Translations under genes and position numbers: made by a program
In this document: positions 2,421 to 39,792 of the stretch, piece after piece
How the letters are laid out: every line of letters starts with the position of its first letter
Numbering within the stretch: position 1 is the stretch's first letter
Assembly (NCBI GenBank): GCA_944382715.1
Contig: CALWNC010000003.1
Span: 19,856-83,855, forward strand
Origin: an uncultured Clostridia bacterium
Lineage (GTDB): Bacteria > Bacillota > Clostridia > Christensenellales > UBA1242
Reading direction: 5' to 3'
DNA: 64,000 bases
Notes under the pieces: generated by a model
The model's input: the letters and a program-made list of their open reading frames with translations, nothing else
What the model was told of the DNA's origin: nothing
The model's database searches: none

Positions 2421-3116
2421 ATGGGAAAGATTTTTATTGAGAAAAAAGAAATTAAATTTAAAGTTAAAGAAACAGTTGAAGATACTTCTTTTGATATTGT
2501 TGACGGCAAGTATGTAGAAAATACTAAGCTTAATAGAAAGTATGTGTCTGATATGTATTCTTATCTTGACTTTACTGTGCTTTTTGCAATGGAAAACTTG
2601 TTTGATGAGTATTACACAAAAATAATACTTTTTAATGATGAAAAGCGAATTGGTTATAACCTAGTTAGTCTGTCAAGTAATCTTGACATTTCAGTTAAGA
2701 GAATTTCTCCCAAAAATTTCTTGGTGCTTGGTATAAATAAAGATCAGGAAACTCAGGGTCAAGCAAGTTTTTGTAGTTTGCTTAATGATGGAACTGTAAA
2801 TGAAGTGACTTTAAATTTCAACTATATAAATCAGTATAAAGTCATTGAAGGAAAATACTTCTTGCTTAACTTTATTGAAACTTTAAGGCTTCCTTCCGAG
2901 GACGGAAAAGATGATGCCACTTACTTTAACACTATTGCCGTTTATAGAGATGATGGCTCAATTCTCAGAATTTTGGTTGAAGAAAAACTAAAAACCAAAA
3001 GAGAGCTTGTCTGTGATATTGATAAGGATATGATTTTAATCTACTATAAAGACGATGGTTCTATCGTTAAAAAAATTGCCATTTCCGAAATCCTTTTAAC
3101 ACACGATACTAAATAA
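2421..3116 (+). CDS. Hypothetical protein (231 aa from the ATG at 2421; the ORF is open from 2415)
   Basis: Long ORF with protein-like composition and no motif I recognise. The start choice is uncertain because the SD is weak. Confidence 0.55.
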   Translation: MGKIFIEKKEIKFKVKETVEDTSFDIVDGKYVENTKLNRKYVSDMYSYLDFTVLFAMENLFDEYYTKIILFNDEKRIGYNLVSLSSNLDISVKRISPKNFLVLGINKDQETQGQASFCSLLNDGTVNEVTLNFNYINQYKVIEGKYFLLNFIETLRLPSEDGKDDATYFNTIAVYRDDGSILRILVEEKLKTKRELVCDIDKDMILIYYKDDGSIVKKIAISEILLTHDTK

Positions 3117-3118
3117 AA

Positions 3119-3263
3119 AAATTGAATTTTTTACCTAAATTTTACTAAAAAACATTAGATTTTGCAATTTTTTTGAATTTATATTATTTTTTAAAAAATA
3201 AATTACGCATTTTTTTAAAAAAAGTACACTTTTTGATTTTTATTATATTAAAAAATTCAATTT
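3119..3263. repeat. Inverted pair of the 15-nt word TAAAAAATTCAATTT flanking a T-tract-rich spacer; a third direct copy lies at 1625-1639
   Basis: AAATTGAATTTTTTA at 3119-3133 is the exact reverse complement of TAAAAAATTCAATTT at 3249-3263. The same 15-mer occurs at 1625-1639. The core AAATT-N-AATTT is itself near-palindromic. Confidence 0.6.
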
Positions 3264-3371
3264 ATCTTTATTTTTATTTATTTTATTTGATTTATTTTTT
3301 TAGGTATATTAAAATAAAATTGTTAAAAATTATAATACTAATAATGAAGATTATTATAAGGAAGTAGAGAA

Positions 3372-4451
3372 ATGTCAAATTTAGAAAATATTCATGGTTT
3401 GGGAAACAATGGAGAAAATAATGTTCAGCAGGGAACTGGAGAATCTGGCTATACACGAGTTATTGGACTTGATGTTGCAAATTCTACTCTCAAAATCTGG
3501 ACAAATGAATTGAATTTAAAATATGTTAATACTATTCGCCAAATAAATGACGCAGGTCTAGTTTATTCTTTTAAAACGGACTATCAAATGTATGTATATG
3601 ATAAACAAGTTTACGAAGTTGGTGTGCTTTCTGCAACGGGCTCAGGTGGAAGAGGAATCTCTAGGTACGGTTCAGAGGAGTATAAAATAGAGGCACTTAT
3701 TGGTATTACTGCTTGTCTTAAAGAACTACCTAATCTTGCTGACCATGAGGTTTTAAGAATTGTTACGGGAGTTCCAAGTAACCTTGCAAAAAATCAAAAG
3801 ATTATTTCGCAAATTAAACAACTTTTGACGGGAATTCATGAAGTTAAGTCCGTTACTTGGGAAAGTGTAAGACCAATAACTTTTGAAGTTCGTGAAGTTA
3901 TTGTTGTTCCACAACCACTTGGGACAATGTATGACTATGTCTATGATCCAGAAGTAGATGCACTTAATGAAAAACTGCTTGATCAAAGGGCAATAGTAAT
4001 TGATATTGGCTGGGGAACAACCGACATTGCCTTTCTTGAAACTGCAAGGGTTCGTTCAACTTTTTCATTTAATATTGGCACATCAGATTATATCTCTGAA
4101 CTTCAAGAAGATGTAAATAGTGATTTGCCAGAAGCTAGCATTTTTTCACTGGCACCACACGAACTTGACGAGGCACTTTTAGAGTCGCCTATAGTTGAAA
4201 CACCTTTCGGCGAATTTGACCTTTCTGCATATGTTGAAAAACATACAAGAAATCAGGCAAAGAGAGTGTATCAAGAAGTAATGGGGCTTGGTCTTGAATT
4301 TAATAAATTTTATAAGATAATTCTTACTGGTGGTGGAGCACTACTTTATGAAAAATACCTGCGGGAATTTTTCAATGACCCAAGACTTATAATTCAAGAA
4401 AATGCCGTTATGGCAAACTGTCGTGGATTTTGGTTACTTGGTAATTACTAA
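3372..4451 (+). CDS. ParM/StbA (Alp)-family actin-like ATPase
   Basis: Actin-fold motifs occur in the canonical order: 'VIGLDVANSTLKIW', 'VVPQPLGT', 'VIDIGWGTTDIAF', 'ILTGGGALLY', 'ANCRGFW'. SD AAGGAAG lies upstream. Confidence 0.8.
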   Translation: MSNLENIHGLGNNGENNVQQGTGESGYTRVIGLDVANSTLKIWTNELNLKYVNTIRQINDAGLVYSFKTDYQMYVYDKQVYEVGVLSATGSGGRGISRYGSEEYKIEALIGITACLKELPNLADHEVLRIVTGVPSNLAKNQKIISQIKQLLTGIHEVKSVTWESVRPITFEVREVIVVPQPLGTMYDYVYDPEVDALNEKLLDQRAIVIDIGWGTTDIAFLETARVRSTFSFNIGTSDYISELQEDVNSDLPEASIFSLAPHELDEALLESPIVETPFGEFDLSAYVEKHTRNQAKRVYQEVMGLGLEFNKFYKIILTGGGALLYEKYLREFFNDPRLIIQENAVMANCRGFWLLGNY

Positions 4452-4466
4452 TAGGAGGAAGAGATT

Positions 4467-5369
4467 ATGACATTAAATGAAGTCGAACAGGCAATAAGAA
4501 ATTTAATTACAAATCAGCCAATGGTTACCACTGGGCCATCGGGAGACGTTGTTAATAGTATATTGTCTGTAATTAATTCGTATAGAAACTTTAGATTTTT
4601 AATTCAAAGTCACCCAGCACAAGACTCTTTTAAATTCAATTCCTTGAATCTTTCTCAAAGAATGGAGTCAGACCTTTCAAATGTAATTTGTCAAACTCTT
4701 CAAGAACGCGGGATTAATCTGATGATGTATATGCCAGCAAGCCAGTTTGGAATGAATCAAAATCCTTATCCTTATAATATGACAAATAACGTTGGTGCAA
4801 ACCTTTCACCAAATATGAGTTCTGGAGTTCTTGGTGGTCAAGTGGTGTACAATAATCAGGTGTCACCAAATAACCCATACTTTCAAGGTATGAGTGGTCA
4901 AATGCAACAGACAATGCCACCTTATCCACAGCCACAAAATTATCCAAATGCTGGGCCAAGACCGGTTATGATGATGAATAACCCAGTTCAACCTATGAGA
5001 AATGGGTCTCAGCACTATCCAAAAACCTCTGCACCAACGCAACCAATTTCTTTTGGCGACCTTAATGGAAAATCAAAAGCAGAAATGCGCGGCAATCCCG
5101 TTCAATCAAGACCAGTTCAGCGAAAACCAGAATTTTCTGTTCCTGCTCGTGAACAGAAGATTCGCAAAAATAATACTACTGGCTCAAAAATTAATACGGT
5201 TTCAAGACCAGAACCAGTAAAGCAGGAAGAAAAACCTCAAGTTGCTAAGCAAATTGAACCTGCAAAACAAGAAGTTCGTGTTGAAGAACCTGCAAAACAA
5301 GAAGAGCAACAACCAAATATAGTAAAGGCAACGGGAAGAGATTATTTGCTAGAACTCTTAAAGAAATAA
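4467..5369 (+). CDS. Hypothetical protein with P/Q/N/M-rich low complexity and EPAKQE repeats; candidate adaptor of the actin-like ATPase
   Basis: Strong SD (TAGGAGGAAG) 15 nt after the upstream stop. The exact 19-nt repeat gaacctgcaaaacaagaag occurs at ~5256 and ~5286. The C-terminal tip reads 'GRDYLLELLKK'. Confidence 0.7.
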   Translation: MTLNEVEQAIRNLITNQPMVTTGPSGDVVNSILSVINSYRNFRFLIQSHPAQDSFKFNSLNLSQRMESDLSNVICQTLQERGINLMMYMPASQFGMNQNPYPYNMTNNVGANLSPNMSSGVLGGQVVYNNQVSPNNPYFQGMSGQMQQTMPPYPQPQNYPNAGPRPVMMMNNPVQPMRNGSQHYPKTSAPTQPISFGDLNGKSKAEMRGNPVQSRPVQRKPEFSVPAREQKIRKNNTTGSKINTVSRPEPVKQEEKPQVAKQIEPAKQEVRVEEPAKQEEQQPNIVKATGRDYLLELLKK

Positions 5370-5447
5370 TTCAATTAGCTTTTAAATGGGTCTATTGTTT
5401 ATTTTTTCATTCTTGCTTTTATATTAATTTAATATTAGATAAAAAGA

Positions 5448-5475
5448 AGTCTAAGGTTTACTTAGGCTTTTTTTG
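5448..5475 (+). terminator. Rho-independent terminator
   Basis: AGTCTAAG / CTTAGGCT stem (one G-U pair), 5-nt loop, followed by a T7 run. Confidence 0.6.
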
Positions 5476-5796
5476 TTTGCGTATTTTTAACTTGACCATA
5501 CAAATTTTTAAATATTTCAATTAAATTTTTTTATAGTAACAAAAAGCAAAAGATATTTTTATTAGAATTTTTAAGTTTATCTTTGAATATTTCTTATTAA
5601 AAGCAACTAAACAGACCATACTAAATTAGATAAAATACAACAACATTCGACAATTTTAACTTAGTTATTGATTTTATTGACAAAAAATGACATAATAGAA
5701 TGTGTAAAATAATTTTTAAACTAAATTTTATAAAATTAGTAAATTTAACTTAGCTATGATTAACAATAATTTTTGGCAAAGATTCATTTAGGCTAG

Positions 5797-9158: not shown

Positions 9159-10240
9159 CATCAAGACAATTTTATTTTGTAATAATAGTTTTTACTATCT
9201 GCTTAAAAATCCAAAAGATGCCATGTCTTCTGTATAACTATCTTGGTAAGGACAGTTTCTTTTTAATTTTATTATTTTTAGTGCTTGATTTAATTGGAAT
9301 AATAATAGCATATCTCTTTGCGAAAAAAATGCAAAAAAATGACCTTTTAAGAGCAAAATCACTTTCACCATTTGGTTTTGTGGTAAAATTTGCATTAATA
9401 TTAACTACATTTTACTTTTTTATGCAAGCAATGCTTTTTTATGAAGCAATTCAAGATTTATTTTCACATATCTTATTTGATAATTTGTCGTGGACGCTTT
9501 TTAGTTTATTTTTAATATTTGCAATTTTCTATCTAGCAAGCTCTGGACTTAAAATAATTGGTAGAAATTTTGAAGTCTACTTTGCAGTCATTATTCTTTC
9601 GCTAATTGTCTTAGCAATTTTTGGCTCAATGCATACGGACTTTACTAGCATTTTACCACTTCAAACACTATTTGCTAAAAATTTTTGGGAAGCATTCAAA
9701 ACCTTTAATCTTTGGTTTGGTGATTTCGTACTCATTTTCTTTTTAACTATAAACTCAAAGGAAACAAAACTAAAATTCACAGTTTTAAGCTATGTCATTT
9801 CAATGCTGTTTGTAATGCTATTATTTTTAGAACTAAATGGATTGTTTTTTGATTTTACACCCGTTCAACCAAGCTTAATTAGTATAATATCTGAGCAGGC
9901 TCTTCTTGGGGTTGACATTGGTAGACTTGACTGGTTCTGCATACTAATCAGCGAAATGGGAACCGTACTTTGCTCTGCACTTTGTTTATGCTTCGCCACA
10001 AAGTCAGTTAAATTTGTTTTCCCAAAAGTAAAACCAAATATTGTGCTTTTTTGTTTTAGTGCAGTTCTTTATCTCACAGATGTATTTTATCTTGTTGACA
10101 GAAATGCAAAAACTGAGCTTTTTATGAACTTTGGTGATATTTATGCTCTCGTACTAAAAATTGCAATTTTTGTTATTTTAACCATAATAAATGTTCATTT
10201 TTGCTTAAAACAATCAAAAAAGAAGAGGGCAAATGTATGA
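9155..10240 (+). CDS. Spore germination protein, B-subunit (APC-like permease) family
   Basis: Multi-pass membrane protein of ~360 aa. Its ATGA start overlaps the A-subunit stop. Position is between the A and C subunits. Confidence 0.8.
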   Translation: MTSRQFYFVIIVFTICLKIQKMPCLLYNYLGKDSFFLILLFLVLDLIGIIIAYLFAKKMQKNDLLRAKSLSPFGFVVKFALILTTFYFFMQAMLFYEAIQDLFSHILFDNLSWTLFSLFLIFAIFYLASSGLKIIGRNFEVYFAVIILSLIVLAIFGSMHTDFTSILPLQTLFAKNFWEAFKTFNLWFGDFVLIFFLTINSKETKLKFTVLSYVISMLFVMLLFLELNGLFFDFTPVQPSLISIISEQALLGVDIGRLDWFCILISEMGTVLCSALCLCFATKSVKFVFPKVKPNIVLFCFSAVLYLTDVFYLVDRNAKTELFMNFGDIYALVLKIAIFVILTIINVHFCLKQSKKKRANV

Positions 10241-11631
10241 AACAATATGCTAAAAAACATTTAGGTCTTATAATATTTTTAATAATAGTTTTGGTCTTTC
10301 CAATAAGCTTGTCAAATCAAGTAAAGTTAAATATGCGTGTAATTGTAACTGGCATTGCCATTGATAAAAACGAAGATGAATATGAAGTAACTGCTCAAAT
10401 TATTAATGCTAGCCCCGGTACAGAAAGTCCCGGTCAAAGTGCAGAGATTAACTTTTTAACGGATACGGGAGAAACAATCTCAAAGGCAATCTCAAATTTA
10501 ATGTATCGTACGGGTAAAGTATCGGCGTTTTCCCATACAAGCTTTGTTATTCTGGGAGAAGATGTTTTAGAAGAAGATGCAACAAAATGCTTAGATATTT
10601 TTGCTCGTGATAAAATCATAAAAAACTCAGCACTTTTACTCTTTGCAAATGGCAAGGCTAAAGATGAAATTCAAAAGACAAAGGATCTAGAACTATCCGT
10701 TGGTCTTGGACTTCAAAAGGTTTATACTTTTAAACAAGAAGAGTGTCACGGACTTATGGTTACAATCTTAGATTTTTTAAATAATAGTAAAATGTATGGA
10801 AAGACTTCTGTTGCAAGTATAGTGAATCTTGGAGATAGTAGTATTCCTTCATCAAGTGAAAGTGGGGAGAGTGAAACTGGGCAAAGTGGCTCTGGGTCAA
10901 GTTCACAAGGTTCATCAAGTGGCTCTGGGTCAAGTTCGGATAGTTCAAGCCAAGATTCCAGTTCATCTAGTAGCTCTCAGCAAAGCAGTTCAAATGAAGG
11001 TGAAATGGAGGGTGGAAGCTCGTCGGGTAGTTCCAGTGGCTCTTCTAGTGGCTCGGGTAGTGGTTCTTCTAGTAGCTCAGGAGCAGGAACTATGAGTTTT
11101 AGATCAAATGCTGGCATTAAGGTTTTTAAAAATGGCAATTTTGCATTTGACATTACAGATGATGACCAAATTTTAGGATTTATGATTGCCACAAACAAGA
11201 CAAAGACTTGCTATCTTGATATTGACAACATAGAAAGTGAGAGCTTTAAAGATACTAAAATGACCATAATTATTAAAGACAAACATGTTTCAAAAAAAAT
11301 TCGATTTGAAAATGGATTCCCACGACTTGATTTAATTGTGTCAATCAATAATTCAGAAATCAATGAAATTTTATCTGTAGATATCCACCCAAATATTGAT
11401 GAAGAGGAATATGACGCAATAGAAAACGCAGTAAGAAAAACCGTATCTGACTATATAAGTAGTGCTTTTGAACTTTCAAAAAGCAATGGTGCAGATATTT
11501 ATCATGCCTATGAAAGTGCATATAAGTTTAATTATAGGGAACTTGAAAAATACTATAAATTTGATGAGGACAGTTTTATTCAAGATTTAAAATTAAATGT
11601 AAAAGTAGAGATTAGAAAGCTTGACTACTAA
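10237..11631 (+). CDS. Ger(x)C-family germination protein with a ~85-aa Ser/Gly-rich insertion and no lipobox cysteine
   Basis: The ATG at 10237 overlaps the B-subunit TGA. 'RVIVTGIAIDKNEDEYEVTAQII' and the C-terminal domain are typical of GerxC. The signal-anchor region 'LVFPISLSNQV' contains no Cys. Confidence 0.78.
   Translation: MKQYAKKHLGLIIFLIIVLVFPISLSNQVKLNMRVIVTGIAIDKNEDEYEVTAQIINASPGTESPGQSAEINFLTDTGETISKAISNLMYRTGKVSAFSHTSFVILGEDVLEEDATKCLDIFARDKIIKNSALLLFANGKAKDEIQKTKDLELSVGLGLQKVYTFKQEECHGLMVTILDFLNNSKMYGKTSVASIVNLGDSSIPSSSESGESETGQSGSGSSSQGSSSGSGSSSDSSSQDSSSSSSSQQSSSNEGEMEGGSSSGSSSGSSSGSGSGSSSSSGAGTMSFRSNAGIKVFKNGNFAFDITDDDQILGFMIATNKTKTCYLDIDNIESESFKDTKMTIIIKDKHVSKKIRFENGFPRLDLIVSINNSEINEILSVDIHPNIDEEEYDAIENAVRKTVSDYISSAFELSKSNGADIYHAYESAYKFNYRELEKYYKFDEDSFIQDLKLNVKVEIRKLDY
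10884..10937 (+). repeat. Exact 21-nt direct repeat (period 33 nt) inside the Ser/Gly-coding tract
   Basis: aagtggctctgggtcaagttc occurs at 10884-10904 and again at 10917-10937. Confidence 0.8.
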
Positions 11632-31319: not shown

Positions 31320-32075
31320 ATGAAAAAGAATTTAAGATTTATGTATGATGGATATGGAGATGACAGAGAGCATGAAGAATATAGAGAGATTACTATGTAT
31401 GTAGAAGATGAGGTACAAAGAAAGCTAGAAGAAGTTCTTTCAAAAGACAAAGAAGCTGTTGAACTTAATGAGAAAATGAAAGAAAATAATAAGACTTACT
31501 TTGATAAAAATAATGAGTCTTTGTTTCAGAGCGACTATGGCTTTACTGACGATTGGGGAGAAGATTACCCTGATTATTGTTTCAATCAGTCAAAATATGA
31601 TTCTTACTTAAAATATGTTCATAATTTTCCTGAAATTTTGGACAAATTAAATCAAGAAAAGGCAAAGCTTGAAAGTGGATTTCACTTTAATAAAAAGAAA
31701 AAACTTGCCGACATTGCCTATAGAATTGAAGAAGCACACAAAATTAGAGAAGCTTGTTTGAAAGTTTACGAGAGAGAAAAACGCTTTAAAGAAACTTGGT
31801 ATAAAGACGGCAAATTTGTTGACTTAAATGCTGAATATAAAGAAAAATTGAATGAAATCAAGAACAGATATGTAAAGCAACTAGCTGAAGAATGTATAGA
31901 TAGACACCCTGAACTTATGATGTATGAATTTGAGGGGACACACTTGACACCATTGGTTGAAAAAGCTATTACTGAGGCACAAAAAACGAGGACACTTTCT
32001 ACTGAAAAAACTAAAAAGGCTAAAGAAACGGAAAAAGTTAACGAAGAAGAAGTTTCAACAATGGGAATGGAATAA
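31320..32075 (+). CDS. Hypothetical K/E-rich protein (251 aa)
   Basis: SD GAGGTGA precedes the ATG. No recognised motif. Confidence 0.55.
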   Translation: MKKNLRFMYDGYGDDREHEEYREITMYVEDEVQRKLEEVLSKDKEAVELNEKMKENNKTYFDKNNESLFQSDYGFTDDWGEDYPDYCFNQSKYDSYLKYVHNFPEILDKLNQEKAKLESGFHFNKKKKLADIAYRIEEAHKIREACLKVYEREKRFKETWYKDGKFVDLNAEYKEKLNEIKNRYVKQLAEECIDRHPELMMYEFEGTHLTPLVEKAITEAQKTRTLSTEKTKKAKETEKVNEEEVSTMGME

Positions 32076-32081
32076 AAATTA

Positions 32082-32140
32082 AAACTAAATCAAATGATCT
32101 AATTATAAAATTAATAATTGTTTGATTTAGTTTTTTTTGA
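32082..32140 (+). terminator. Rho-independent terminator (long-loop hairpin)
   Basis: AAACTAAATCAAA (32082-32094) pairs with TTTGATTTAGTTT (32121-32133), then a T-run. Confidence 0.5.
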
Positions 32141-32777
32141 GTAGGAAAACAATTATATGCTAAAAGATAAGCTTTTTTGTCAAATCAAAATTGATTATAT
32201 GTAAATTTTTAATGTATATTTTTTTATTAATACTTAAAAATTTGGCAAAAAATTATAATCAAAAAATGAAGCTTAAAGCGAATGGCAGTAAAACTATAAA
32301 CAATCAAACACATAATATTAATGTTTATAAAAATACCAAAGTTAAAAATTAATACTAAAAGTGATACATAGAAATAACCATAATACTAAAAGTTCAATAT
32401 AAAAATCCCGACTAAAAACTAACACATAAAGTGTATTAAAATTAAAGATAATATTAATAAATTTAAAAAACATTTTTGTTAAAAACTTAAGGCAAAAATT
32501 AATATTAAAAAGTGCATAACAATAAAAATTTTTATCTTAGAAATGTTATTTATCTAGTTATTTGTTTTTATGATTAAAATTTATTTTACTTATTTTATAA
32601 TTTAAAATGTAAAATTTAAATCTTTAATTTAAAAATGCAATTTAATATTATAATCTAAATATAATTGGGCTTATATTTTGATTTTTGATTAGAATTTGCA
32701 GTTTTTTATGCTTGATATATTAAATTTTATTATTTAAGATGCAAAATACTGCAATTCTATGTCAAAATTTATAGAAT

Positions 32778-33740
32778 TTACATAAAAATATTATTAAAAA
32801 ACTTTGAAATAATTTTGTTTCCAAATAAAATCATTAAAATAAAGGCATAAAGAAAACATATAATTATAAAGTAATTAGTATTAATAAAAAGAAAAGGTTT
32901 CATTGGTACAATTTTAAGTAAAAAAGAATGTAAGATATATATTGGCATTGTGTTTTGTCCAAGTTTAGTTATTGGAAAATTTTTATTGGGAATAAGTAGC
33001 ACAAGCAATAAAATTATAGAAAACGAGATTGCCATAAGCCCAATTCTTATAAGGACATTAAAATTCCCCATATTATATGAGTATGACCCATATAGAGCTG
33101 ATATTGGTGGGTCAAGTATTAAAATTATACCTAAAATTAGAAAAAATACAGAAAATATCGCAATATTTATAAATATTTTGCAGTTATTTAAATTATTTAA
33201 ACAATTAATGTGGGTATTAAATTTCTTACTTTTTCCAAGATAAAAGCCCAATACAAAAAATGGATAAAAGTAAAACATTCTTTGTAATGATAAGAAATAG
33301 CCCAAAAAGTCTACAAATCCAGCACCAAGCGAAAGTATAATTGATAGAATAAAAATCAAAATCTTTTTTGTTTTAGATTTTGTATTAATTATGGGAATAC
33401 TAAAGTAATAGATTATTATTACAAATAAATACCACAAAACCCATTCAGGTGAAAGGTATGATTTTAGGGTGTTAAAAGCTATAAGGTAATATATAATCCA
33501 AAATGATTGAAAATAAAAATAGGGTATAATAAATTTTTTTAGTAAAGAAGAAAAATTAAATTTTGCAAAGTAGCCAGATATAAAGATAAATGTGGGCATA
33601 TGAAAAGAATATATTACAGTGTATAGGTATCTTGTAATTTCACTATTTAAGGAAAACTCTAAAAGATGCCCAGTAATAACAAAAAACATTAACAGAAATT
33701 TGAGATTATCAAACTTGTAATTTCTAGTACTTATACACAT
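32778..33740 (-). CDS. Acyltransferase family 3 membrane protein (O-acyltransferase-like)
   Basis: N-terminal 'RNYKFDNLKFLLMFFVITGHL' (R..DxxK...H motif), 'HMPTFIFISGYF', and ~10 TM helices. Confidence 0.7.
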   Translation of the reverse strand: MCISTRNYKFDNLKFLLMFFVITGHLLEFSLNSEITRYLYTVIYSFHMPTFIFISGYFAKFNFSSLLKKFIIPYFYFQSFWIIYYLIAFNTLKSYLSPEWVLWYLFVIIIYYFSIPIINTKSKTKKILIFILSIILSLGAGFVDFLGYFLSLQRMFYFYPFFVLGFYLGKSKKFNTHINCLNNLNNCKIFINIAIFSVFFLILGIILILDPPISALYGSYSYNMGNFNVLIRIGLMAISFSIILLLVLLIPNKNFPITKLGQNTMPIYILHSFLLKIVPMKPFLFINTNYFIIICFLYAFILMILFGNKIISKFFNNIFM

Positions 33741-34017: not shown

Positions 34018-37000
34018 ATGAAAAGTCTCAATAAAATATTTTCCTTTTTATTTTTAGTTGTGTCATCGTTTCTTTGCTATGTAATGGTTAATTCTAATAC
34101 GACAAATGAAATTGTTGTTGCCGATGGCACGAATAAATTGACCTGTGAAGTTGCTTCTGATAACTTATTAAACGACAATGAATATGTTAGTTTTTATAAA
34201 CTTACAAATGATTTGATTGAGAGTTACTCGGCAATAGGTGGTGGTACAAATCTTTCAAATGCGTTTGACGGGAATTGGAATACCTACTGGCAAACGGCAA
34301 CTGAAAATTCGGGCACTTTTAAAAATGACATCGTAGTTAACTTTAAAACGGAAGTGATAATAGACAGAATATTATATGCATCATCATCTGCAAGACTTGG
34401 TCATGGATATCCTACAATTTTAAACATTTATATTGCTTCGTCAAGTGACGATGAACTTGAGCTTTATGGCACGGTAAATAGCAGTGCAACAAATAGTAGA
34501 GTAGTATTTTATTTTGATAGCCCACAAGTAGTAAAATCATTAAAATTCGAATTTTATGAAGTTAATACAATGCACAACTGGGTTGCAACTTGCAAAGAAT
34601 TGCAGTTTTTAACGCCAGAATCGGCAGAATGTGAAGTAATTAGAAGTGGCGAAATTTTTACAGATTACACTCAGACTTCACTTGCTGATGAATATAAAAG
34701 CACGCAGGCTATTGACAGTTTGGCTGAAAGCACTAAGGACTTACCAAATTTTGACAGTGCAATTTCTCCAATACTTGACAGAGCAAGGGCGATTATTGAT
34801 GGATATGTAACTTTTGACACTCGCAGAGAATTTTCTACAAGTAGCACAGCAACTAATCAGATAATGCAGTGGGGAGATATGCGTGCATACGCATCAAACA
34901 CTCTTCAAATGTCATCTTTTGGAATAAACAGACAAGTTAGTGGAATAGCTGGACTTGCAGGTGAACAAATTGTGATTTATGTTGAGGCTGATGAAGGTGA
35001 CCCACTGCCATCAATTGCATTTACCCAAAGCTATGGAGCTTGGCAGAGTTGGAAAAGTGAGGTAAAACTTTCGCGTGGTAAAAATGTGTTTACTTTTCCA
35101 AATTTAATTACTTCAAATTATAGTAAAGAGGTTGTTGCGGGGGGACCTATTCATATAATTAATCCATACCTTCCTTCCGAGCAGTCGTCAAATGTAAAGA
35201 TTTACATTGAAGGTGGAAATTTTTATCCAGTATTTAGAGATGGCGATGATGAAACAAGTTTTAAAATGTATCTTGAAGATTACACCAACAAGCTTAATGA
35301 TGCAAGTAATCTAAGTGTTCAGTTAGATGTTTTTGAGGTGGTCTGTGACAATGTAATATTATCTTCGCTTTCAAGTTTGGCATATAACAGTTATATTGTT
35401 AATGGAAATTCACCACAAAAAAACTGTGATACTTGGAATGACTATATGTACAAACTCATAACATTTGCAGGTGTTTCATTTGATGAAAACGATGAAAATT
35501 ATAATGAAAGGAATACGCATCTTTATACAAATATTAGAGTGGTTCAACCATGGCCGGGAGCATATGCCTTTGCGGCTGACGACCACATTGGCATAATTGA
35601 TTCAAGCACATTTCATCAACTTGTAAATAAGGCAATAACTGGCTGGGCATTTGCTCATGAAATTGGTCATGCCCTTGACAACAATCAAAGAACTTGGGGT
35701 GAAGTTACAAACAATATGTGGGCATATTATGATGCATTACTTGAAGGCGACTATGATAGGCTCCCTTTAAATCAGGTTTACTTGCAGTTATCTTCTGATT
35801 TTACGCTGACAAATTCGGCTTTTCAATCTTTTGGTGATAACTGTGTTATCTGGATGAGCATTGAAGCTGGATTTCCAGGCTACTGGGGAAATCTTGAAAA
35901 CAAATATAGGTTTGAAACGACAGGGAAAAATCTGGGCAGAACAGAAAGAATGATTTACTATTCTTCTCTTGCAACGGGTTATGACCTTTCAAGCTACTTT
36001 GAAAGGTGGGGTTTTTATATGAATAGTGATGGAACTTACAGTGCAAGTAACCGCTTTACTACTGGTGGTGCTTCGTCAACTTTCACAGAACTTATGCAAG
36101 AGGCAATAGCTTCAAATAAAATAAATACTGAAATAAAAAAACTTTGGTATCTTGACACCAATCAGTTTGTATATTTGTTTGCAAATGACTATAAGCTTGG
36201 CGACTGGGCAAGCCTTTATAACGAAAACACTACCACTGAGATATTGGAAATTGTAGAGACTAATGGAAGTTATACTTTATATTTGCCAGATGTCAGTGAT
36301 ATTGCACACCTTGGCTATGAAATTTCAGTAAAAATTGGTGATGAATTTAAAGTTGTTGGTTTTACTTATGGCTCTAGTTTTACAGACACTACTAGTTATG
36401 ACACTACTCCAACATACAAAGTCTGCGCCTATGATAGATGCTTAAATACAACGGCTTATGTTGAAAAATCATATATTCAGGTATCTGATGAAAATGTATG
36501 TATGGTTAATGATACATATTTTAATTCAATATCAGACGCAGTAAGTAGTGCAAGCGCAGGTGACACGATATATCTTCTAAAGAGTACTAGAGAAAGTGGC
36601 ATTGTTATTGATAAAAACTTAACACTCACAGTTGCAGATGGGATTACCGAAGATATAATAGTTTATAGACTTGGCATAGGTGATTTATTTGTAATAAATA
36701 GTGGTGCTACTCTTACGGCTTATGGAACTGACAATGCCAAATTAATTATAGATGGAGATAATATTACTCAGTCGGGAACTTTAATAAGCGTTAGTGGAAC
36801 TTTGATTATAACTGGCAATACAATTTTGCAAAATAATATTTGTACGGGCAGTGGTGGTGCTATTTTTGCAAAAGGTGAGGTTAGACTTACAAATGTTGAG
36901 ATTAGAAATAACAAAGCCGTGAATGGTGGCGCAGTTTCTGGAAATAATGTTAGAACTTACTATACAAATGTTGTCTTTTCGGGCAATACTGCTACAAGCA

Positions 37001-39792
37001 ATGGTGGTGCAATTTATAATATCGGAACTATTGAGTTTATAAACTGCAACTTCATTTCTAATACTGCAAGCAGTAATGGTGGTGCAATTTGCAACACCAG
37101 TGGTGGTGTTATAACTTTGACTAATACCAGTTTTTTAAATAATTTTGCAGTAAATGGTGGAGGGCTTTTTGCAGACGGCAAGTCTACATTAAATAATACG
37201 ACATTTTCTAATAATACGGCATCGAGCAATGGTGGAGCGATTTACTCATCATGTTCAAATAGTGCTAGAGTTGTTTATGTTTATGGTGGAAATTTTTCAA
37301 ATAACACTTCAAATAATGGTAGTCTGTTTTACTTAAATAACGGAGAGTTTAACATTGGAAGAGATTCGGGAACTTCTTCAATGCCAATACTTTCGGGAGA
37401 AATATATATTTCTGGTGCAAATCTTACCATTCATAGTGAAATGTTTGACTCTTCAAATGTTACATTTGTGCTTCAATCAATTTCAAATGGGAAGAGGTTG
37501 TTTGCAGTTAATGGCTTTAGTATTTCTGATGAAGTTATTCAAGCAATTAGTGTAAAAAATGCTGTTTGTTATAAAGATAGTAATATTGTTCGCGTAAACT
37601 TAGCCTATATCAATTTGATAGTTTCAATTTCTGGCAACGAAACAATAGTTTCACTTCCAGTAGGGGAAATTACTCTAGATGAAAGTTTACTTGAATTATC
37701 CGAAACCGACTATGTTTCAAGTTGGGTTTATAATAGCACAACCTATCAAACGGGCGATGTAATTGAAGTTTATGAAAATTCCACAATTTTTGTCACCTTG
37801 GGCAAAAAGCTGGAAATAACACTTTCTGATGGTGCAAAATCAGAAACAGTTTATGTAAAGCCAAATGAATTTTATTATTTGCCACTTTACTCGCCATCTG
37901 GTGACGAAGTTATCATGTGGAAAAATGGTGCGTTGGAGTATTTACCTGCTACAAGCATTCTTGTAACTGAAAATGTTCAATTTGTTGCAACAAAAATTAA
38001 TAGATTTACAATTTTGTTTAAAGATTACGATGGTTCAATTATAAGCTCAACAACTTATAAGTATTGGGATACAGTTTTTATTCCAGCTAGTCCTACAAGA
38101 GAGGGTGATGAAAATTGCAGTTACGAATTTGCAGGCTGGTCACCAAATGTTATTACAATATGTACAGGCAACGCAGAATATATTGCTACATATAACACAA
38201 TATATAAAAGATTTACAGTAATTTTTAAAAATTATGATGGTTCAATTCTAAGTGAAACAATCTATAATTATGGTGACAGAGTTATTATTCCAAGTGACCC
38301 AACAAGACCAAGCGACAAAATTTATGAATATTTATTTAATGGCTGGGACAAAGTGATAGAAACAAACTGCACGGGCAATGCCGAGTACACTGCAACTTAT
38401 TCAAGCACTTTTATTGAATATAAGATAGTTTTCAAAGATTATGACGAAACGGTGCTGAGTGAAAATATCTACCATTATGGGGATAGGATAGTTATACCAA
38501 ATGACCCGACAAGACCAAGTGACAATGTTTATAATTATGTGTTTATGGGTTGGACTCCAGAAGTTGAAAAAATTTGTACGGGAAGTGCCGAGTACATGGC
38601 GACTTATGAGGGGTCACTTAATATGTTTTCAGTTGTTTTCAGAGATTATAACGACTTTTTGCTTAGTGTAAAACTTTATAACTACGGAGAAACAATTGAA
38701 TTGCCAAGTGATCCAACGAGAGTTAGTGATAATGTTTATAGTTATGAGTTTGTAGGTTGGTCTCCAGAAGTTGAATTAGTTTGCACTGGTATTGCTGAAT
38801 ATAAGGCAGTATACAGAGAGATTTACATTGATTATACCGTAGTATTTAAAGACTATGACGGGGAAATTCTTAGCCAGAAAACTTATCATTATGGTGATAC
38901 CATTATAGTTCCAAGTAATCCAAATCGCGAAAGTGATGAAAAATATAACTATTCATTTAGTGGCTGGGATAAAGAGATAGAAAATTCTTGTACGGGCAAT
39001 GCCGAGTACACCGCAACCTATTCAAGTAGTCCTATTGAGTATACAATTATTTTTAAAAATTATGACGGAATAATATTGAGTGAGAATGTCTATAATTATG
39101 GAGAAACAATTGAATTGCCAAGCAACCCAGCTAGACCAAGTGATGGTGTATATGATTATATATTTAGTGGTTGGGATATGGCAGTTGAAGAAGTTTGCAC
39201 GGGAAATGCCAACTACACTGCAACTTATGAACGCAAATTCATTGAATATAAAATAATATTTAAAAACTTTGACAACTCAGTCATAAGTGAAAAAACATAT
39301 CATTATGGAGATGAGATTATCATTCCAGAAACTCCAACAAAAGTTTCAGATGAAGTTTACAGATATGTATTTAATGGCTGGACACCAGAAGTATCTAAGT
39401 ATTGCACAGAAAGCATATCGTACACGGCAACATTTATTTCAGTGCTCCACACTAGTGTAATAATAACTGTTGAGAATGGAACTATAAATGGGAGTAATGA
39501 AAATTCGCAGGTAGTTCAAATTGGCGATGTTGTGACGCTTATGGCAAGTCCAGCAGAAAAGGGCAAAGTTTTTGTTGGTTTTTATAATGGCACAGAGCTT
39601 TTAAGTAGTTCATCAACTTATACATTTGTAGCGAGTGAAGATATACTAGTAGTCGCAGTATATCAAGATCAGGAGGGGATTAGTCCAACAATCATAGTGA
39701 TAATTATTGTGATTTCTGTTATAATAGTTTTAATTACTTTGACGGGTATAATAACATACATAGTTACAAAAAAGAAGAAAATTCAATCTTAA
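34018..39792 (+). CDS. Giant surface protein: discoidin-like domain, M60-like (enhancin-type) zinc peptidase, Pmp-type GGAI/FxxN beta-helix, 7 Listeria-Bacteroides repeats, C-terminal TM anchor
   Basis: Signal/anchor 'IFSFLFLVVSSFLCYVMVNS'. 'NAFDGNWNTYWQT' (F5/8 type C-like). 'FAHEIGHALDN...WGEVTNNMW' (HEIGH at 35655-35669). 'FSGNTATSNGGAIYN', 'FISNTASSNGGAICN' and 'FSNNTASSNGGAIYS'. Repeats of the form 'F.V.FK.YDG...S...Y.YGD....P..PTR.SD..Y.Y.F.GW'. C-terminal 'IIVIIIVISVIIVLITLTGIITYIV' followed by KKKK. Confidence 0.85.
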   Translation: MKSLNKIFSFLFLVVSSFLCYVMVNSNTTNEIVVADGTNKLTCEVASDNLLNDNEYVSFYKLTNDLIESYSAIGGGTNLSNAFDGNWNTYWQTATENSGTFKNDIVVNFKTEVIIDRILYASSSARLGHGYPTILNIYIASSSDDELELYGTVNSSATNSRVVFYFDSPQVVKSLKFEFYEVNTMHNWVATCKELQFLTPESAECEVIRSGEIFTDYTQTSLADEYKSTQAIDSLAESTKDLPNFDSAISPILDRARAIIDGYVTFDTRREFSTSSTATNQIMQWGDMRAYASNTLQMSSFGINRQVSGIAGLAGEQIVIYVEADEGDPLPSIAFTQSYGAWQSWKSEVKLSRGKNVFTFPNLITSNYSKEVVAGGPIHIINPYLPSEQSSNVKIYIEGGNFYPVFRDGDDETSFKMYLEDYTNKLNDASNLSVQLDVFEVVCDNVILSSLSSLAYNSYIVNGNSPQKNCDTWNDYMYKLITFAGVSFDENDENYNERNTHLYTNIRVVQPWPGAYAFAADDHIGIIDSSTFHQLVNKAITGWAFAHEIGHALDNNQRTWGEVTNNMWAYYDALLEGDYDRLPLNQVYLQLSSDFTLTNSAFQSFGDNCVIWMSIEAGFPGYWGNLENKYRFETTGKNLGRTERMIYYSSLATGYDLSSYFERWGFYMNSDGTYSASNRFTTGGASSTFTELMQEAIASNKINTEIKKLWYLDTNQFVYLFANDYKLGDWASLYNENTTTEILEIVETNGSYTLYLPDVSDIAHLGYEISVKIGDEFKVVGFTYGSSFTDTTSYDTTPTYKVCAYDRCLNTTAYVEKSYIQVSDENVCMVNDTYFNSISDAVSSASAGDTIYLLKSTRESGIVIDKNLTLTVADGITEDIIVYRLGIGDLFVINSGATLTAYGTDNAKLIIDGDNITQSGTLISVSGTLIITGNTILQNNICTGSGGAIFAKGEVRLTNVEIRNNKAVNGGAVSGNNVRTYYTNVVFSGNTATSNGGAIYNIGTIEFINCNFISNTASSNGGAICNTSGGVITLTNTSFLNNFAVNGGGLFADGKSTLNNTTFSNNTASSNGGAIYSSCSNSARVVYVYGGNFSNNTSNNGSLFYLNNGEFNIGRDSGTSSMPILSGEIYISGANLTIHSEMFDSSNVTFVLQSISNGKRLFAVNGFSISDEVIQAISVKNAVCYKDSNIVRVNLAYINLIVSISGNETIVSLPVGEITLDESLLELSETDYVSSWVYNSTTYQTGDVIEVYENSTIFVTLGKKLEITLSDGAKSETVYVKPNEFYYLPLYSPSGDEVIMWKNGALEYLPATSILVTENVQFVATKINRFTILFKDYDGSIISSTTYKYWDTVFIPASPTREGDENCSYEFAGWSPNVITICTGNAEYIATYNTIYKRFTVIFKNYDGSILSETIYNYGDRVIIPSDPTRPSDKIYEYLFNGWDKVIETNCTGNAEYTATYSSTFIEYKIVFKDYDETVLSENIYHYGDRIVIPNDPTRPSDNVYNYVFMGWTPEVEKICTGSAEYMATYEGSLNMFSVVFRDYNDFLLSVKLYNYGETIELPSDPTRVSDNVYSYEFVGWSPEVELVCTGIAEYKAVYREIYIDYTVVFKDYDGEILSQKTYHYGDTIIVPSNPNRESDEKYNYSFSGWDKEIENSCTGNAEYTATYSSSPIEYTIIFKNYDGIILSENVYNYGETIELPSNPARPSDGVYDYIFSGWDMAVEEVCTGNANYTATYERKFIEYKIIFKNFDNSVISEKTYHYGDEIIIPETPTKVSDEVYRYVFNGWTPEVSKYCTESISYTATFISVLHTSVIITVENGTINGSNENSQVVQIGDVVTLMASPAEKGKVFVGFYNGTELLSSSSTYTFVASEDILVVAVYQDQEGISPTIIVIIIVISVIIVLITLTGIITYIVTKKKKIQS
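38002..39450 (+). repeat. Seven tandem 207-nt (69-aa) coding repeats (Listeria-Bacteroides / Flg_new-type)
   Basis: Repeat starts at 38002 and 38209 give a 207-nt period. Long near-identical stretches recur between copies, for example tgYacgggcaatgccgagtacacYgcaacYtattcaag at ~38370 and ~38990. Confidence 0.85.

What the first reader, a model, noticed from the sequence alone, without database searches (positions are those of the whole stretch)
3372..5369. Chromosomal ParM/Alp-type actin-like ATPase paired with an unrecognisable low-complexity partner: candidate new cytomotive or segregation module
Seen: the 359-aa ORF has the actin-fold/ParM motif series in canonical order ('VIGLDVANSTLKIW', 'VVPQPLGT', 'VIDIGWGTTDIAF', 'ILTGGGALLY', 'ANCRGFW'). 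Fifteen nt downstream, with its own AGGAGG, lies a 300-aa ORF. That ORF has a ~90-aa globular-looking N-terminus and ~150 aa of P/Q/N/M-rich sequence. It also has two exact 19-nt DNA repeats encoding EPAKQE and an amphipathic tip 'GRDYLLELLKK'. Established: in parC-parM-parR and alp7ARC loci the DNA-binding adaptor gene lies directly 3' of the actin gene, and its C-terminal tip docks on the filament. Inference: the 300-aa protein is a functional analogue of ParR/AlpR, but it resembles no adaptor I recognise. The pair sits in a chromosome between glmS and cls with no replication, conjugation or integrase genes nearby. Its cargo could therefore be something other than a plasmid.
Basis: partly seen in the sequence, partly recalled or inferred. 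Interest (0 to 1): 0.7.

Follow-up and report, generated by a model that had tools for sequence, protein, structure and literature searches.

The report
Chromosomal actin-like filament operon with orphan tether
A group of uncultured gut Clostridia carries, in its chromosome, a very slowly evolving bacterial actin gene always paired with a previously undescribed tether protein that does not look DNA-binding, so it is probably a cell-organising cytoskeleton and not a plasmid-partition cassette.

Summary
Window 3372-4451 encodes a ParM/Alp-type actin-like ATPase (ALP), with Pfam ALP_N and MreB-like_C above threshold. Window 4467-5369, 15 nt downstream, encodes a 300-aa orphan partner. A conserved sigma70-like promoter and a terminator hairpin bracket the pair as an operon.

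The partner has a confident three-helix bundle (aa 1-90), a roughly 190-aa disordered linker and an invariant C-terminal helix, GRDYLLELLKK. In all 29 related loci with complete downstream sequence, the ALP is followed by a partner with this tip.

The module is chromosomal and appears vertically inherited in uncultured gut Clostridia. Across nine syntenic species the ALP is 91% identical on average, against 53% for glmS. The closest plasmid and phage ParMs are at most 32% identical.

The ParR analogy holds only for the tail. The N-domain is not ribbon-helix-helix (RHH) or helix-turn-helix (HTH), it is acidic in every orthologue, and no centromere-like repeats lie nearby. A beta-rich orphan protein ("A") is co-conserved upstream. 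Relatives add a membrane protein and a further orphan.

Best reading: a repurposed ParMR-like cytoskeletal module with non-DNA cargo, comparable to the recently described CorMR. It is a new variant of a known kind. The function is inferred, not shown.

The parts
2421..3116 (+). Protein A: a 231-aa orphan all-beta protein, probably a third component of the module.
   Evidence: It has no Pfam, NCBIfam, PHROG or PADLOC hit. More than 200 homologue clusters are 70-92% identical. It lies upstream of the ALP in two unrelated genomic contexts, adjacent in the window type and with B and C between in the cassette type. AlphaFold2 predicts 19 strands at mean pLDDT 68. Foldseek gives only weak beta-propeller/WD40 hits (E 2e-3, TM 0.2-0.4). 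The true start is the ATG at 2421, because an identical 231-aa protein, P0153, exists.
3287..3315 (+). Sigma70-like promoter of the ALP-partner operon: -35 TTGATT at 3287-3292, a 17-nt spacer, and -10 TAAAAT at 3310-3315.
   Evidence: The consensus scan found it. It is the only sequence block conserved in the A-ALP spacer across 16 species, while spacer length varies from 46 to 339 nt. No iterated repeats are present.
3358..3364 (+). Ribosome-binding site AAGGAAG of the ALP gene.
   Evidence: Read directly from the sequence. Present in most of the 16 species in the spacer alignment.
3372..4451 (+). Actin-like ATPase (ALP) of the ParM/Alp superfamily, 359 aa. Residues 1 to about 28 form a variable N-terminal extension.
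   Evidence: Pfam ALP_N scores 47.8 bits (cut-off 26.3) and MreB-like_C 38.4 bits (cut-off 27.8). PHROG 691 'partition protein' matches over the full length at 1.9e-38. Nearest solved relatives are BtParM, pCBH ParM and Alp12. The nucleotide-binding motifs are invariant or nearly so in 22 family members.
4453..4458 (+). Ribosome-binding site AGGAGG of the partner gene.
   Evidence: Read directly from the sequence; it ends 8 nt before the ATG at 4467.
4467..4742 (+). Partner N-terminal domain (aa 1-92), an antiparallel three-helix bundle.
   Evidence: AlphaFold2 pLDDT is about 92, with helices 3-16, 24-48 and 53-80. No PDB or BFVD fold match has E below 0.8. A profile search of 1.84 billion representatives gave only 54 hits; all but three (two repetitive ~500-aa proteins and one short fragment) start at the protein's N-terminus, in proteins of up to ~320 aa. 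Net charge is -1 here and -1 to -5 in 28 of 29 orthologues (+1 in L030).
4743..5333 (+). Partner disordered linker, P/Q/N/M-rich. It contains the two 19-nt direct repeats at 5256-5274 and 5286-5304.
   Evidence: pLDDT is below 50 over most of 95-285. Sequence, length (113-336 aa) and net charge (-24 to +9) are hypervariable among orthologues. The repeat was confirmed.
5334..5369 (+). Partner C-terminal amphipathic helix GRDYLLELLKK plus stop codon. Inferred docking peptide for the ALP.
   Evidence: It is invariant or nearly so in 23 aligned homologues. The motif GRD[YF]L[LM]x[LI]L is present in all 29 complete downstream partners. AlphaFold2 predicts a helix at 289-299. The hydrophobic moment is 0.45. 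Docking itself was not tested.
5441..5476 (+). Intrinsic-terminator-like hairpin (A-run, GTCTAAG stem, 5-nt loop, CTTAGGC, T-run) that closes the operon.
   Evidence: RNA folding of 5370-5490 gives -21.7 kcal/mol and a z-score of -2.7 against shuffles.

Best explanation
**What is shown.** A two-gene operon runs from the promoter at 3287-3315 to the terminator at 5441-5476. It encodes a chromosomal ParM/Alp-type actin-like ATPase with intact nucleotide-binding motifs, and a dedicated partner. The partner is a folded three-helix bundle, a long disordered linker and an invariant C-terminal amphipathic helix. The pairing is strict across the family. The gene pair appears vertically inherited and sits in housekeeping surroundings.

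**What is inferred.**
- The ATPase polymerises in a nucleotide-dependent way, as its solved relatives do.
- The partner's C-terminal helix docks on the ATPase, as the C-terminal helices of ParR and CorR do on ParM and CorM.
- The flexible linker lets the N-terminal bundle hold something at a distance from the filament.
- That cargo or anchor is a protein or membrane component, not a DNA centromere. The best candidates are the co-conserved neighbours: the beta-rich protein A, and in relatives the single-pass membrane protein B and orphan C.

**Overall reading.** This is a ParMR-like machine repurposed as a housekeeping cytoskeletal or positioning system, in the manner of cyanobacterial CorMR. 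It uses an unrelated adaptor head and extra components. What it organises (cell shape, envelope or another structure) is unknown.
For: **ALP identity**
- Pfam ALP_N and MreB-like_C score above their cut-offs, and PHROG 691 matches over the full length.
- A profile search of the PDB ranks BtParM (6e-13), pCBH ParM, Alp12, Dh-cParM1, CorM and ParM-R1.
- The motifs GxDVANSTxK, VTGVPS, QPxGT, DxGWGTxD and GGG are invariant or nearly so in 22 members.

**Operon**
- The promoter and ribosome-binding site are conserved across species.
- The intergenic gap is 15 nt with AGGAGG, and a terminator hairpin follows.

**Partner architecture**
- Supported.
- The tip is invariant while the linker is hypervariable.

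**Strict pairing**
- 29 of 29 loci with complete downstream sequence have the partner.
- The nearest solo ALP, at 42% identity, lacks it.

**Chromosomal and vertical**
- The order glmS-dut-A-ALP-partner holds in 15 further species-level loci (glmS itself detected in 9), on contigs up to 685 kb.
- Across nine species, mean pairwise identity is ALP 91%, A 77%, dut 68% and glmS 53%. ALP divergence correlates with neighbour divergence at r = 0.45-0.85.
- Codon usage and GC3 are native.

**Not mobile**
- Plasmid homologues are at most 31.6% identical and phage homologues at most 27%.
- IMG/VR gave one hit, at 24% identity. PADLOC gave none.

**Not DNA-directed**
- The N-domain is not RHH or HTH and is acidic.
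- No iterons are present.

**Extra components**
- Searches show them.

**Precedent**
- In CorMR, a C-terminal peptide placed after a disordered region binds CorM, CorR does not bind DNA, and the system controls cell shape (10.1101/2025.06.27.661541).
- Chromosomal ParMs polymerise in vitro (PMC12270681).
Against: - No experiment or complex prediction supports tip-ALP docking.
- Polymerisation is inferred from homology of only 24-32% identity to characterised ParMs.
- The cargo is unknown. Proteins B and C are absent from the window and from its close relatives, so the membrane-anchor idea rests on more distant family members.
- Protein A has its own transcription unit, and its fold assignment is weak (pLDDT 68, TM 0.2-0.4).
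- An acidic helical bundle could still bind DNA indirectly through another protein, and a centromere could lie elsewhere in the genome.
- ALP codon adaptation is only average (CAI 0.52), so there is no sign of very high expression.
Confidence: 0.6

Rival explanations
1. A chromosomal type II (ParMRC-like) DNA-segregation system. The partner links ALP filaments to a centromere on the chromosome or on an unseen plasmid, either directly or through another DNA-binding protein.
For: - Gene order and the tail logic match parM-parR.
- The closest plasmid relative has a ParM followed by a small protein whose N-terminus looks RHH-like by eye.
- Cb-cParR binds a chromosomal parC (PMC12270681).
- The window lies in a region with dnaB, ssb and rpoBC. 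By general knowledge of Firmicutes genomes, that region is origin-proximal.
Against: - The N-domain is a three-helix bundle with no RHH or HTH match.
- It is net acidic in 28 of 29 orthologues (+1 in L030).
- Linker charge is not conserved, ranging from -24 to +9.
- The operon has no iterons, and the spacer shrinks to 46 nt in one species.
- The genomic context differs between subclades.
Confidence: 0.15
2. Reverse polarity. The C-terminal amphipathic helix is a membrane-targeting sequence, as in MinD or FtsA, and the N-terminal bundle is what binds the ALP. The partner would then tether filaments directly to the membrane.
For: - The tip is a terminal amphipathic helix with a hydrophobic moment of 0.45, comparable to the FtsA and MinD membrane-targeting sequences computed the same way.
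- CorR recruits CorM to membranes through an amphipathic helix.
- The window clade lacks the membrane protein B.
Against: - The tip is invariant, including its acidic D and E residues, and has net charge of about 0. More distant members end in acidic tails such as LLGEK, LLQEKE and LLEDRE. This is unlike basic, sequence-tolerant membrane-targeting helices (general knowledge).
- In ParR and CorR, the C-terminal helix is the part that binds the actin.
Confidence: 0.15
3. A remnant or domesticated partition cassette from an integrated plasmid or prophage, with no cellular role of its own.
For: - The ALP hits PHROG 691 'partition protein'.
- NCBI names homologues 'ParM/StbA family protein'.
- ParM genes move between plasmids and chromosomes.
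Against: - Housekeeping flanks and synteny are conserved in 15 further species-level loci of the window type.
- The ALP is the slowest-evolving gene in the neighbourhood, at 91% against 53% for glmS.
- Codon usage is native, and no integrase or replication genes were found.
- No close plasmid, phage or IMG/VR relatives exist.
Confidence: 0.04
4. The ATPase is a non-polymerising actin-fold enzyme or chaperone (sugar-kinase, Hsp70 or EutJ type), and the neighbouring gene is unrelated.
For: There are weak sub-threshold Pfam and NCBIfam hits to Ppx-GppA, EutA and EutJ over the phosphate-2 motif only.
Against: - Full-length matches go only to the ALP/ParM families.
- The partner co-occurs strictly with the ALP.
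Confidence: 0.03

Closest known systems
CorMR of Anabaena and other multicellular cyanobacteria (bioRxiv 10.1101/2025.06.27.661541)
   Same: - It is a chromosomal ParMR-type pair, vertically inherited across a clade.
- It has no parC repeats.
- The actin carries a variable N-terminal extension.
- The adaptor carries a disordered segment followed by a short C-terminal helix, which in CorR binds the actin.
- Its function is not DNA segregation.
   Different: - The ALP is only remotely related to CorM (profile E 7.8e-5 to 9rmi, weaker than to BtParM).
- CorR keeps an RHH domain and an N-terminal membrane-binding helix. The partner here has a three-helix bundle and a much longer linker of 113-336 aa.
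- This module has extra conserved genes (A, and B and C in relatives).
- The phylum is different (Clostridia).
Chromosome-encoded ParMs Dh-cParM1 and Cb-cParM (Ali et al., J Biol Chem 2025, PMC12270681)
   Same: - These are Firmicutes ParM-like ATPases encoded on chromosomes and conserved within a genus.
- They have been shown to polymerise.
- Roles beyond plasmid segregation have been proposed for them.
   Different: - Sequence relation is remote (8x1i at E 1.6e-5; 7x54 at E 6e-5).
- Those systems have ParR-like partners, and Cb-cParR binds a parC.
- Here the partner is not ParR-like and no parC is seen.
- Conservation here spans many species-level genomes of an uncultured clade.
Plasmid ParMRC / Alp7ARC / AlfAB type II partition systems (ParM-R1, BtParM of pBMB67, pCBH ParM, Alp12)
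   Same: - The ATPase has the actin fold.
- The ATPase gene is followed by a small adaptor gene in one operon.
- The adaptor ends in a short amphipathic helix.
- BtParM and pCBH ParM are the nearest solved relatives.
   Different: - The module is not on a mobile element.
- Identity to any plasmid or phage ParM is only 24-32%.
- The adaptor lacks RHH or HTH, and there is no iteron centromere.
- The ATPase evolves far more slowly than plasmid ParMs. That comparison rests on general knowledge that plasmid ParM families are highly divergent.
MamK-MamJ of magnetotactic bacteria (analogy recalled from general knowledge, not tested here)
   Same: A chromosomal actin-like filament works with an acidic or low-complexity, largely disordered linker protein that connects a non-DNA cargo to the filament.
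   Different: No sequence relation was found. There are no magnetosome genes. MamJ's repeat architecture and binding mode differ. This is an analogy of logic only.

Membership tests
ParM/Alp actin-like ATPase superfamily (Pfam ALP_N PF17989) | Family HMM match above the curated threshold | tested here: met
   ALP_N scores 47.8 bits against a cut-off of 26.3. MreB-like_C scores 38.4 bits against 27.8.
ParM/Alp actin-like ATPase superfamily (Pfam ALP_N PF17989) | Actin-fold nucleotide-binding motifs (phosphate 1, phosphate 2, adenosine) in canonical order and conserved | tested here: met
   D34-x-A-N-S-T-x-K41, D211-I-G-W-G-T-x-D218 and G320-G-G322 are invariant or nearly so in 22 family members.
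ParM/Alp actin-like ATPase superfamily (Pfam ALP_N PF17989) | Closest characterised relatives are ParM/Alp filament formers, not sugar kinases or Hsp70 | tested here: met
   The PDB profile search ranks BtParM 6e-13, pCBH ParM 3e-11, Alp12 1e-7, Dh-cParM1, CorM and ParM-R1. EutJ appears only at 7e-3.
ParM/Alp actin-like ATPase superfamily (Pfam ALP_N PF17989) | Nucleotide-dependent polymerisation into filaments | not testable with these tools
   Needs purified protein, with light scattering, pelleting or electron microscopy.
Type II (ParMRC) partition system | Actin-like ATPase and small adaptor gene in one operon | tested here: met
   The gap is 15 nt, with a shared promoter and terminator. 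The pairing holds in 29 of 29 loci.
Type II (ParMRC) partition system | Adaptor has an N-terminal RHH (or HTH) DNA-binding domain | tested here: not met
   AlphaFold2 predicts a three-helix bundle with no N-terminal strand. No PDB fold or sequence match was found. There is no similarity to the ParR-like protein of the nearest plasmid. The domain is net acidic.
Type II (ParMRC) partition system | Centromere (parC) of iterated repeats at or near the operon promoter | tested here: not met
   No direct-repeat family beyond AT-rich low complexity was found. The only block conserved across species is the promoter. A centromere elsewhere in the genome cannot be excluded.
Type II (ParMRC) partition system | Adaptor C-terminal helix binds the ATPase | tested here: inconclusive
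   An invariant C-terminal amphipathic helix is present. No complex prediction or assay was run.
Type II (ParMRC) partition system | Carried by a plasmid or phage that it stabilises | tested here: not met
   The context is chromosomal, on contigs up to 685 kb with housekeeping flanks. No close plasmid, phage or IMG/VR relatives exist.
NCBIfam PRK13917 (plasmid segregation protein ParM, equivalog) and TIGR03739 (PRTRC_D) | Score at or above the curated equivalog cut-off | tested here: not met
   PRK13917 scores 81.7 bits against a cut-off of 417. TIGR03739 scores 73 bits against 214.8.
CorMR cytoskeleton | Chromosomal, clade-wide vertical inheritance without parC | tested here: met
CorMR cytoskeleton | ATPase belongs to the CorM clade | tested here: not met
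   CorM (9rmi) matches only at E 7.8e-5, weaker than several plasmid ParMs. All homologues come from Clostridia MAGs.
CorMR cytoskeleton | Adaptor is an RHH protein with an N-terminal membrane-binding amphipathic helix | tested here: not met
   There is no RHH. Residues 3-16 form helix 1 of a confidently folded bundle.
CorMR cytoskeleton | Role in cell-shape control, with cortical filaments | not testable with these tools
   Needs imaging or genetics. The organisms are uncultured.

The most novel reading that the evidence does not exclude
This is an undescribed clade-wide housekeeping actin cytoskeleton of uncultured gut Clostridia, a further cellular bacterial actin system beside MreB, FtsA, MamK and CorM. 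Its filaments engage a non-DNA cargo or anchor through a new adaptor type: a three-helix-bundle head, a long disordered tether and an invariant docking helix. A small beta-propeller-like protein (A) and, in most lineages, a single-pass membrane protein (B) and orphan C act as filament partners. It may take over shape or envelope-organising roles, or position a structure not yet known.
Probability: 0.3. Interest if true: 0.8.

Novelty: new variant of a known kind. Interest (0 to 1): 0.6.

Why it matters
Until 2025, ParM-type actins were regarded as plasmid-partition motors. Only one chromosomal system, CorMR, has an assigned cellular function.

This locus offers a second, independent case in a different phylum, and it is unusually clean:
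- **Constraint.** The actin is under very strong purifying selection, at 91% identity where glmS is 53%.
- **Adaptor.** The adaptor has lost every DNA-binding hallmark but kept the C-terminal tail.
- **Partners.** Three further orphan proteins travel with it.

If confirmed, it would show that repurposing ParMR into cellular cytoskeletons is recurrent. It would define a new adaptor architecture and give a first handle on cell organisation in an abundant but uncultured group of gut Clostridia.

All components are small and soluble, apart from the membrane protein B. The central claims could therefore be tested in vitro without culturing the organism.

Tried and rejected
- **Family searches for the partner, A, B and C.** Pfam, NCBIfam, PHROGs and PADLOC gave nothing significant.
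- **Fold searches.** The partner model against PDB and BFVD returned only generic helical bundles at E above 0.8. Protein A against PDB returned only weak beta-propeller hits.
- **PDB sequence profile of the partner.** Nothing found.
- **parC-like repeats in 3100-3380.** Only AT-rich low complexity was found. The 64-aa ORF at 3173-3367 was dismissed as spurious because the spacer is not length-conserved.
- **Alternative promoter.** The better-scoring TTAAAA-16-TATAAT at 3309-3336 is not conserved across species. The conserved TTGATT-17-TAAAAT was preferred.
- **B and C homologues or B-type motifs in the window and close loci.** None found.
- **Codon adaptation as a sign of high expression.** The ALP is average.
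- **Rfam and tRNA scans of the window.** Empty.
- **Literature search for this clade plus actin-like proteins.** Nothing found.
- **Not possible with the tools.** An ALP-tip complex prediction could not be run because the structure jobs were exhausted.
Full report
**1. The observation**

Window 3372-4451 (+) encodes 359 aa with the actin-fold motif series in order. Window 4467-5369 (+) encodes 300 aa ending in GRDYLLELLKK. The gap between them is 15 nt and holds AGGAGG at 4453-4458. The exact 19-nt repeat GAACCTGCAAAACAAGAAG occurs at 5256 and 5286. It lies in a linker that is hypervariable among orthologues, so I read it as a local slippage duplication with no special meaning.

**2. The ATPase**

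- Pfam places it in ALP_N (47.8 bits, cut-off 26.3) plus MreB-like_C (38.4 bits, cut-off 27.8).
- PHROG 691 'partition protein' matches over the full length at 1.9e-38.
- The NCBIfam ParM (PRK13917) and PRTRC_D equivalogs match far below their cut-offs.
- A family profile against PDB sequences ranks BtParM (3js6, 6e-13), pCBH ParM (3e-11), Alp12 (1e-7), Dh-cParM1, Cb-cParM, CorM and ParM-R1. EutJ appears only at 7e-3.
- The phosphate-1, phosphate-2 and adenosine motifs are invariant or nearly so in 22 diverse members. The first 20-35 residues are variable.

It is therefore a ParM/Alp-type actin-like protein with an intact nucleotide site. Polymerisation is inferred.

**3. The partner**

No library recognises it. 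AlphaFold2 with a 23-sequence alignment gives the following:

| Region | Prediction |
|---|---|
| Helices 3-16, 24-48, 53-80 | Confident antiparallel three-helix bundle, pLDDT about 92 |
| Residues 95-285 | Disordered |
| Residues 289-299 | Helix |

Foldseek against PDB and BFVD finds nothing better than generic helical bundles at E above 0.8. It finds no RHH or HTH fold.

The alignment shows a conserved N-domain, a linker with essentially no conservation, and an invariant tip GR(D/N)YL(L/M)ELLKK. Across 29 orthologues:
- N-domain net charge is -1 to -5 in 28 of them (+1 in L030).
- Linker length ranges from 113 to 336 aa.
- Linker net charge ranges from -24 to +9.

A profile of the N-domain against 1.84 billion representative proteins finds only 54 hits. 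All but three of them (two repetitive ~500-aa proteins and one short fragment) start at the protein's N-terminus, in proteins of up to ~320 aa. This is a narrow orphan family.

**4. Conservation and context**

- **ALP homologues.** They number more than 130 clusters at 55-91% identity, many on contigs of 70-685 kb from uncultured gut Clostridia MAGs. Some of these are labelled Christensenella sp..
- **Pairing.** In every locus whose downstream region is complete (29 of 29), the ALP is followed within 14-193 nt by a partner ending in GRD[YF]L[LM]x[LI]L. The other four loci are cut off by contig ends.
- **Family boundary.** The nearest ALP outside the family (42% identity, L037) has no such partner.
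- **Window-type synteny.** In 15 further species-level loci the order is glmS-dut-A-ALP-partner (glmS itself detected in 9).
- **Cassette-type synteny.** In the subclades at 55-67% identity the cassette is usually A-B-C-ALP-partner (some loci lack A or C), set in different surroundings. B is a single-pass membrane protein with a K/E-rich tail that carries short conserved motifs. C is an orphan of about 155 aa.
- **Evolutionary rate.** Over nine syntenic species, mean pairwise identity is glmS 53%, dut 68%, A 77% and ALP 91%. ALP divergence correlates with neighbour divergence at r = 0.45-0.85.
- **Composition.** Codon usage and GC3 are native.
- **Window content.** It carries glmS, dut, cls, gerABC, rpsR, ssb, dnaB, rpsL-rpsG-fusA-tuf, rpoBC and eno, and no mobile-element genes among the ORFs scanned.
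- **Mobile-element relatives.** The closest plasmid ParM is 31.6% identical and the closest phage ParM about 27%. A scan of IMG/VR with the two most conserved peptides found one hit, at 24% identity.

The module is chromosomal, appears vertically inherited and is under strong constraint.

**5. No centromere**

The A-ALP spacer (3117-3371, 12% GC) has no repeat family beyond AT-rich low complexity. Its length ranges from 46 to 339 nt across 16 species. The only conserved block is TTTATTTGATTTATTTT...TATATTAAAAT, which is a sigma70-like promoter (TTGATT-17-TAAAAT, window 3287-3315), together with the ribosome-binding site. A terminator-like hairpin follows the partner at 5441-5476.

**6. Protein A**

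The 231-aa orphan at 2421-3116 is itself highly conserved. It lies upstream of the ALP in both synteny types, directly adjacent in the window type, which argues for a functional link. AlphaFold2 predicts an all-beta protein of 19 strands at pLDDT 68. Foldseek gives only weak beta-propeller hits, so the fold call is tentative.

**7. Mechanism**

*Shown:* a dedicated operon for an actin-like ATPase plus a bundle-tether-helix protein, strict co-occurrence of the two, an invariant tip, and no DNA-binding hallmarks.

*Inferred:* the tip docks on the ALP, as the C-terminal helices of ParR and CorR dock on their actins. For CorR, the preprint reports that helix H5b, placed after a disordered region, mediates binding, and that CorR does not bind DNA. 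The linker would act as a flexible tether. The bundle would bind a protein or membrane partner, with A, B and C as candidates.

I put this reading at 0.6. The rivals are:

| Rival | Confidence | Main argument against |
|---|---|---|
| DNA-segregation system with indirect or distant centromere binding | 0.15 | No RHH/HTH, acidic head, no iterons |
| Tip is a membrane-targeting helix and the bundle binds the ALP | 0.15 | Invariant acidic residues in the tip and acidic tails in distant members |
| Mobile-element remnant | 0.04 | Synteny, slow evolution, native codon usage |
| Non-polymerising enzyme | 0.03 | Full-length matches only to ALP/ParM families |

**8. Comparison with the known**

Chromosomal ParMs were described in 2025. 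Dh-cParM1 and Cb-cParM polymerise in vitro (PMC12270681). CorMR controls cell shape in Anabaena (10.1101/2025.06.27.661541). The present module shares their logic but differs in four ways:
- The ALP is only remotely related to any of them.
- The adaptor head is unrelated to RHH. The ParR-like protein next to the nearest plasmid ParM shows no similarity to it.
- Additional orphan components are conserved alongside.
- The clade is an uncultured group of gut Clostridia, for which the literature search found nothing.

It fails the defining ParMRC tests for an RHH adaptor, a parC site and a mobile carrier. It also fails the CorMR membership tests. I therefore classify it as a new variant of a known kind, not a member of either.

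**9. Limits**

No complex prediction, polymerisation assay or localisation data exist. I could not determine whether these genomes carry mreB. B and C are missing from the window clade. Protein A's fold and role are uncertain.

Noticed in passing
window 2421-3116: A 231-aa orphan all-beta protein ('A', weak beta-propeller-like fold) lies upstream of the ALP in two unrelated genomic contexts, adjacent in the window type. Homologues in more than 200 clusters are 70-92% identical. It is probably part of the module.
   Followed up: partly
L004 7040-7973; L006 5015-5977; L007 4780-5991; L008 4928-5960; L009 4998-5972; L032 4491-5401: Relatives carry two extra genes between A and the ALP. B is a single-pass membrane protein with a K/E-rich tail and short conserved motifs (LAGNVF..EE; GGF..M.QFG). 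C is an orphan of about 155 aa. Neither is detectable in the window.
   Followed up: partly
L004 1-6270 and 11218-17047; L006 8515-13041; L008 8093-13038; L009 1-4203; L030 14-4489: In five of the seven loci examined with the A-B-C-type cassette, the cassette abuts giant surface proteins of about 1500-2500 aa (Big_2, Flg_new_2, Glug or LRR-like repeats). Whether this is coincidence or a functional link is unknown.
   Followed up: no
window 34018-39792: A 1924-aa protein carries F5/8 type C, Peptidase_M60, Chlamydia PMP repeat and Listeria-Bacteroides repeat (Flg_new) domains. It looks like a giant surface glycoprotease or adhesin-like protein, 29 kb from the module.
   Followed up: no
L032 5424-6440 and 7528-8640: The ALP gene is tandemly duplicated (ALP-partner-ALP2) in one MAG, next to nusG-rplK-rplA.
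   Followed up: no
window 10201-11631: The GerAC-family germination lipoprotein carries a low-complexity S/G-rich insert of about 75 aa between its N- and C-terminal domains.
   Followed up: no
window 1-64000: There are no tRNA genes and no Rfam family at gathering threshold in 64 kb, even though the window spans rpsL-rpsG-fusA-tuf and rpoB-rpoC. Window 32001-33000 has only 18% GC.
   Followed up: no
L037 5001-5984: The nearest ALP outside the family (42% identity) is a solo gene between the ftsY-ylxM-ffh operon and an ankyrin-repeat protein. It has no partner with the GRDYLL tip, which marks the family boundary.
   Followed up: partly
L038 3968-5539 (plasmid CP074574.1, Mycoplasmatota bacterium): The closest plasmid ParM (31.6% identity) is followed by a 174-aa protein with an RHH-like N-terminus (HPISLRLN...) and an amphipathic C-terminus. 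This is a canonical ParR-like layout, unrelated to the partner's N-domain.
   Followed up: partly
window 3173-3367: A 64-aa TTG ORF lies in the 12%-GC spacer. It is almost certainly spurious, because the spacer is not length-conserved among species.
   Followed up: yes
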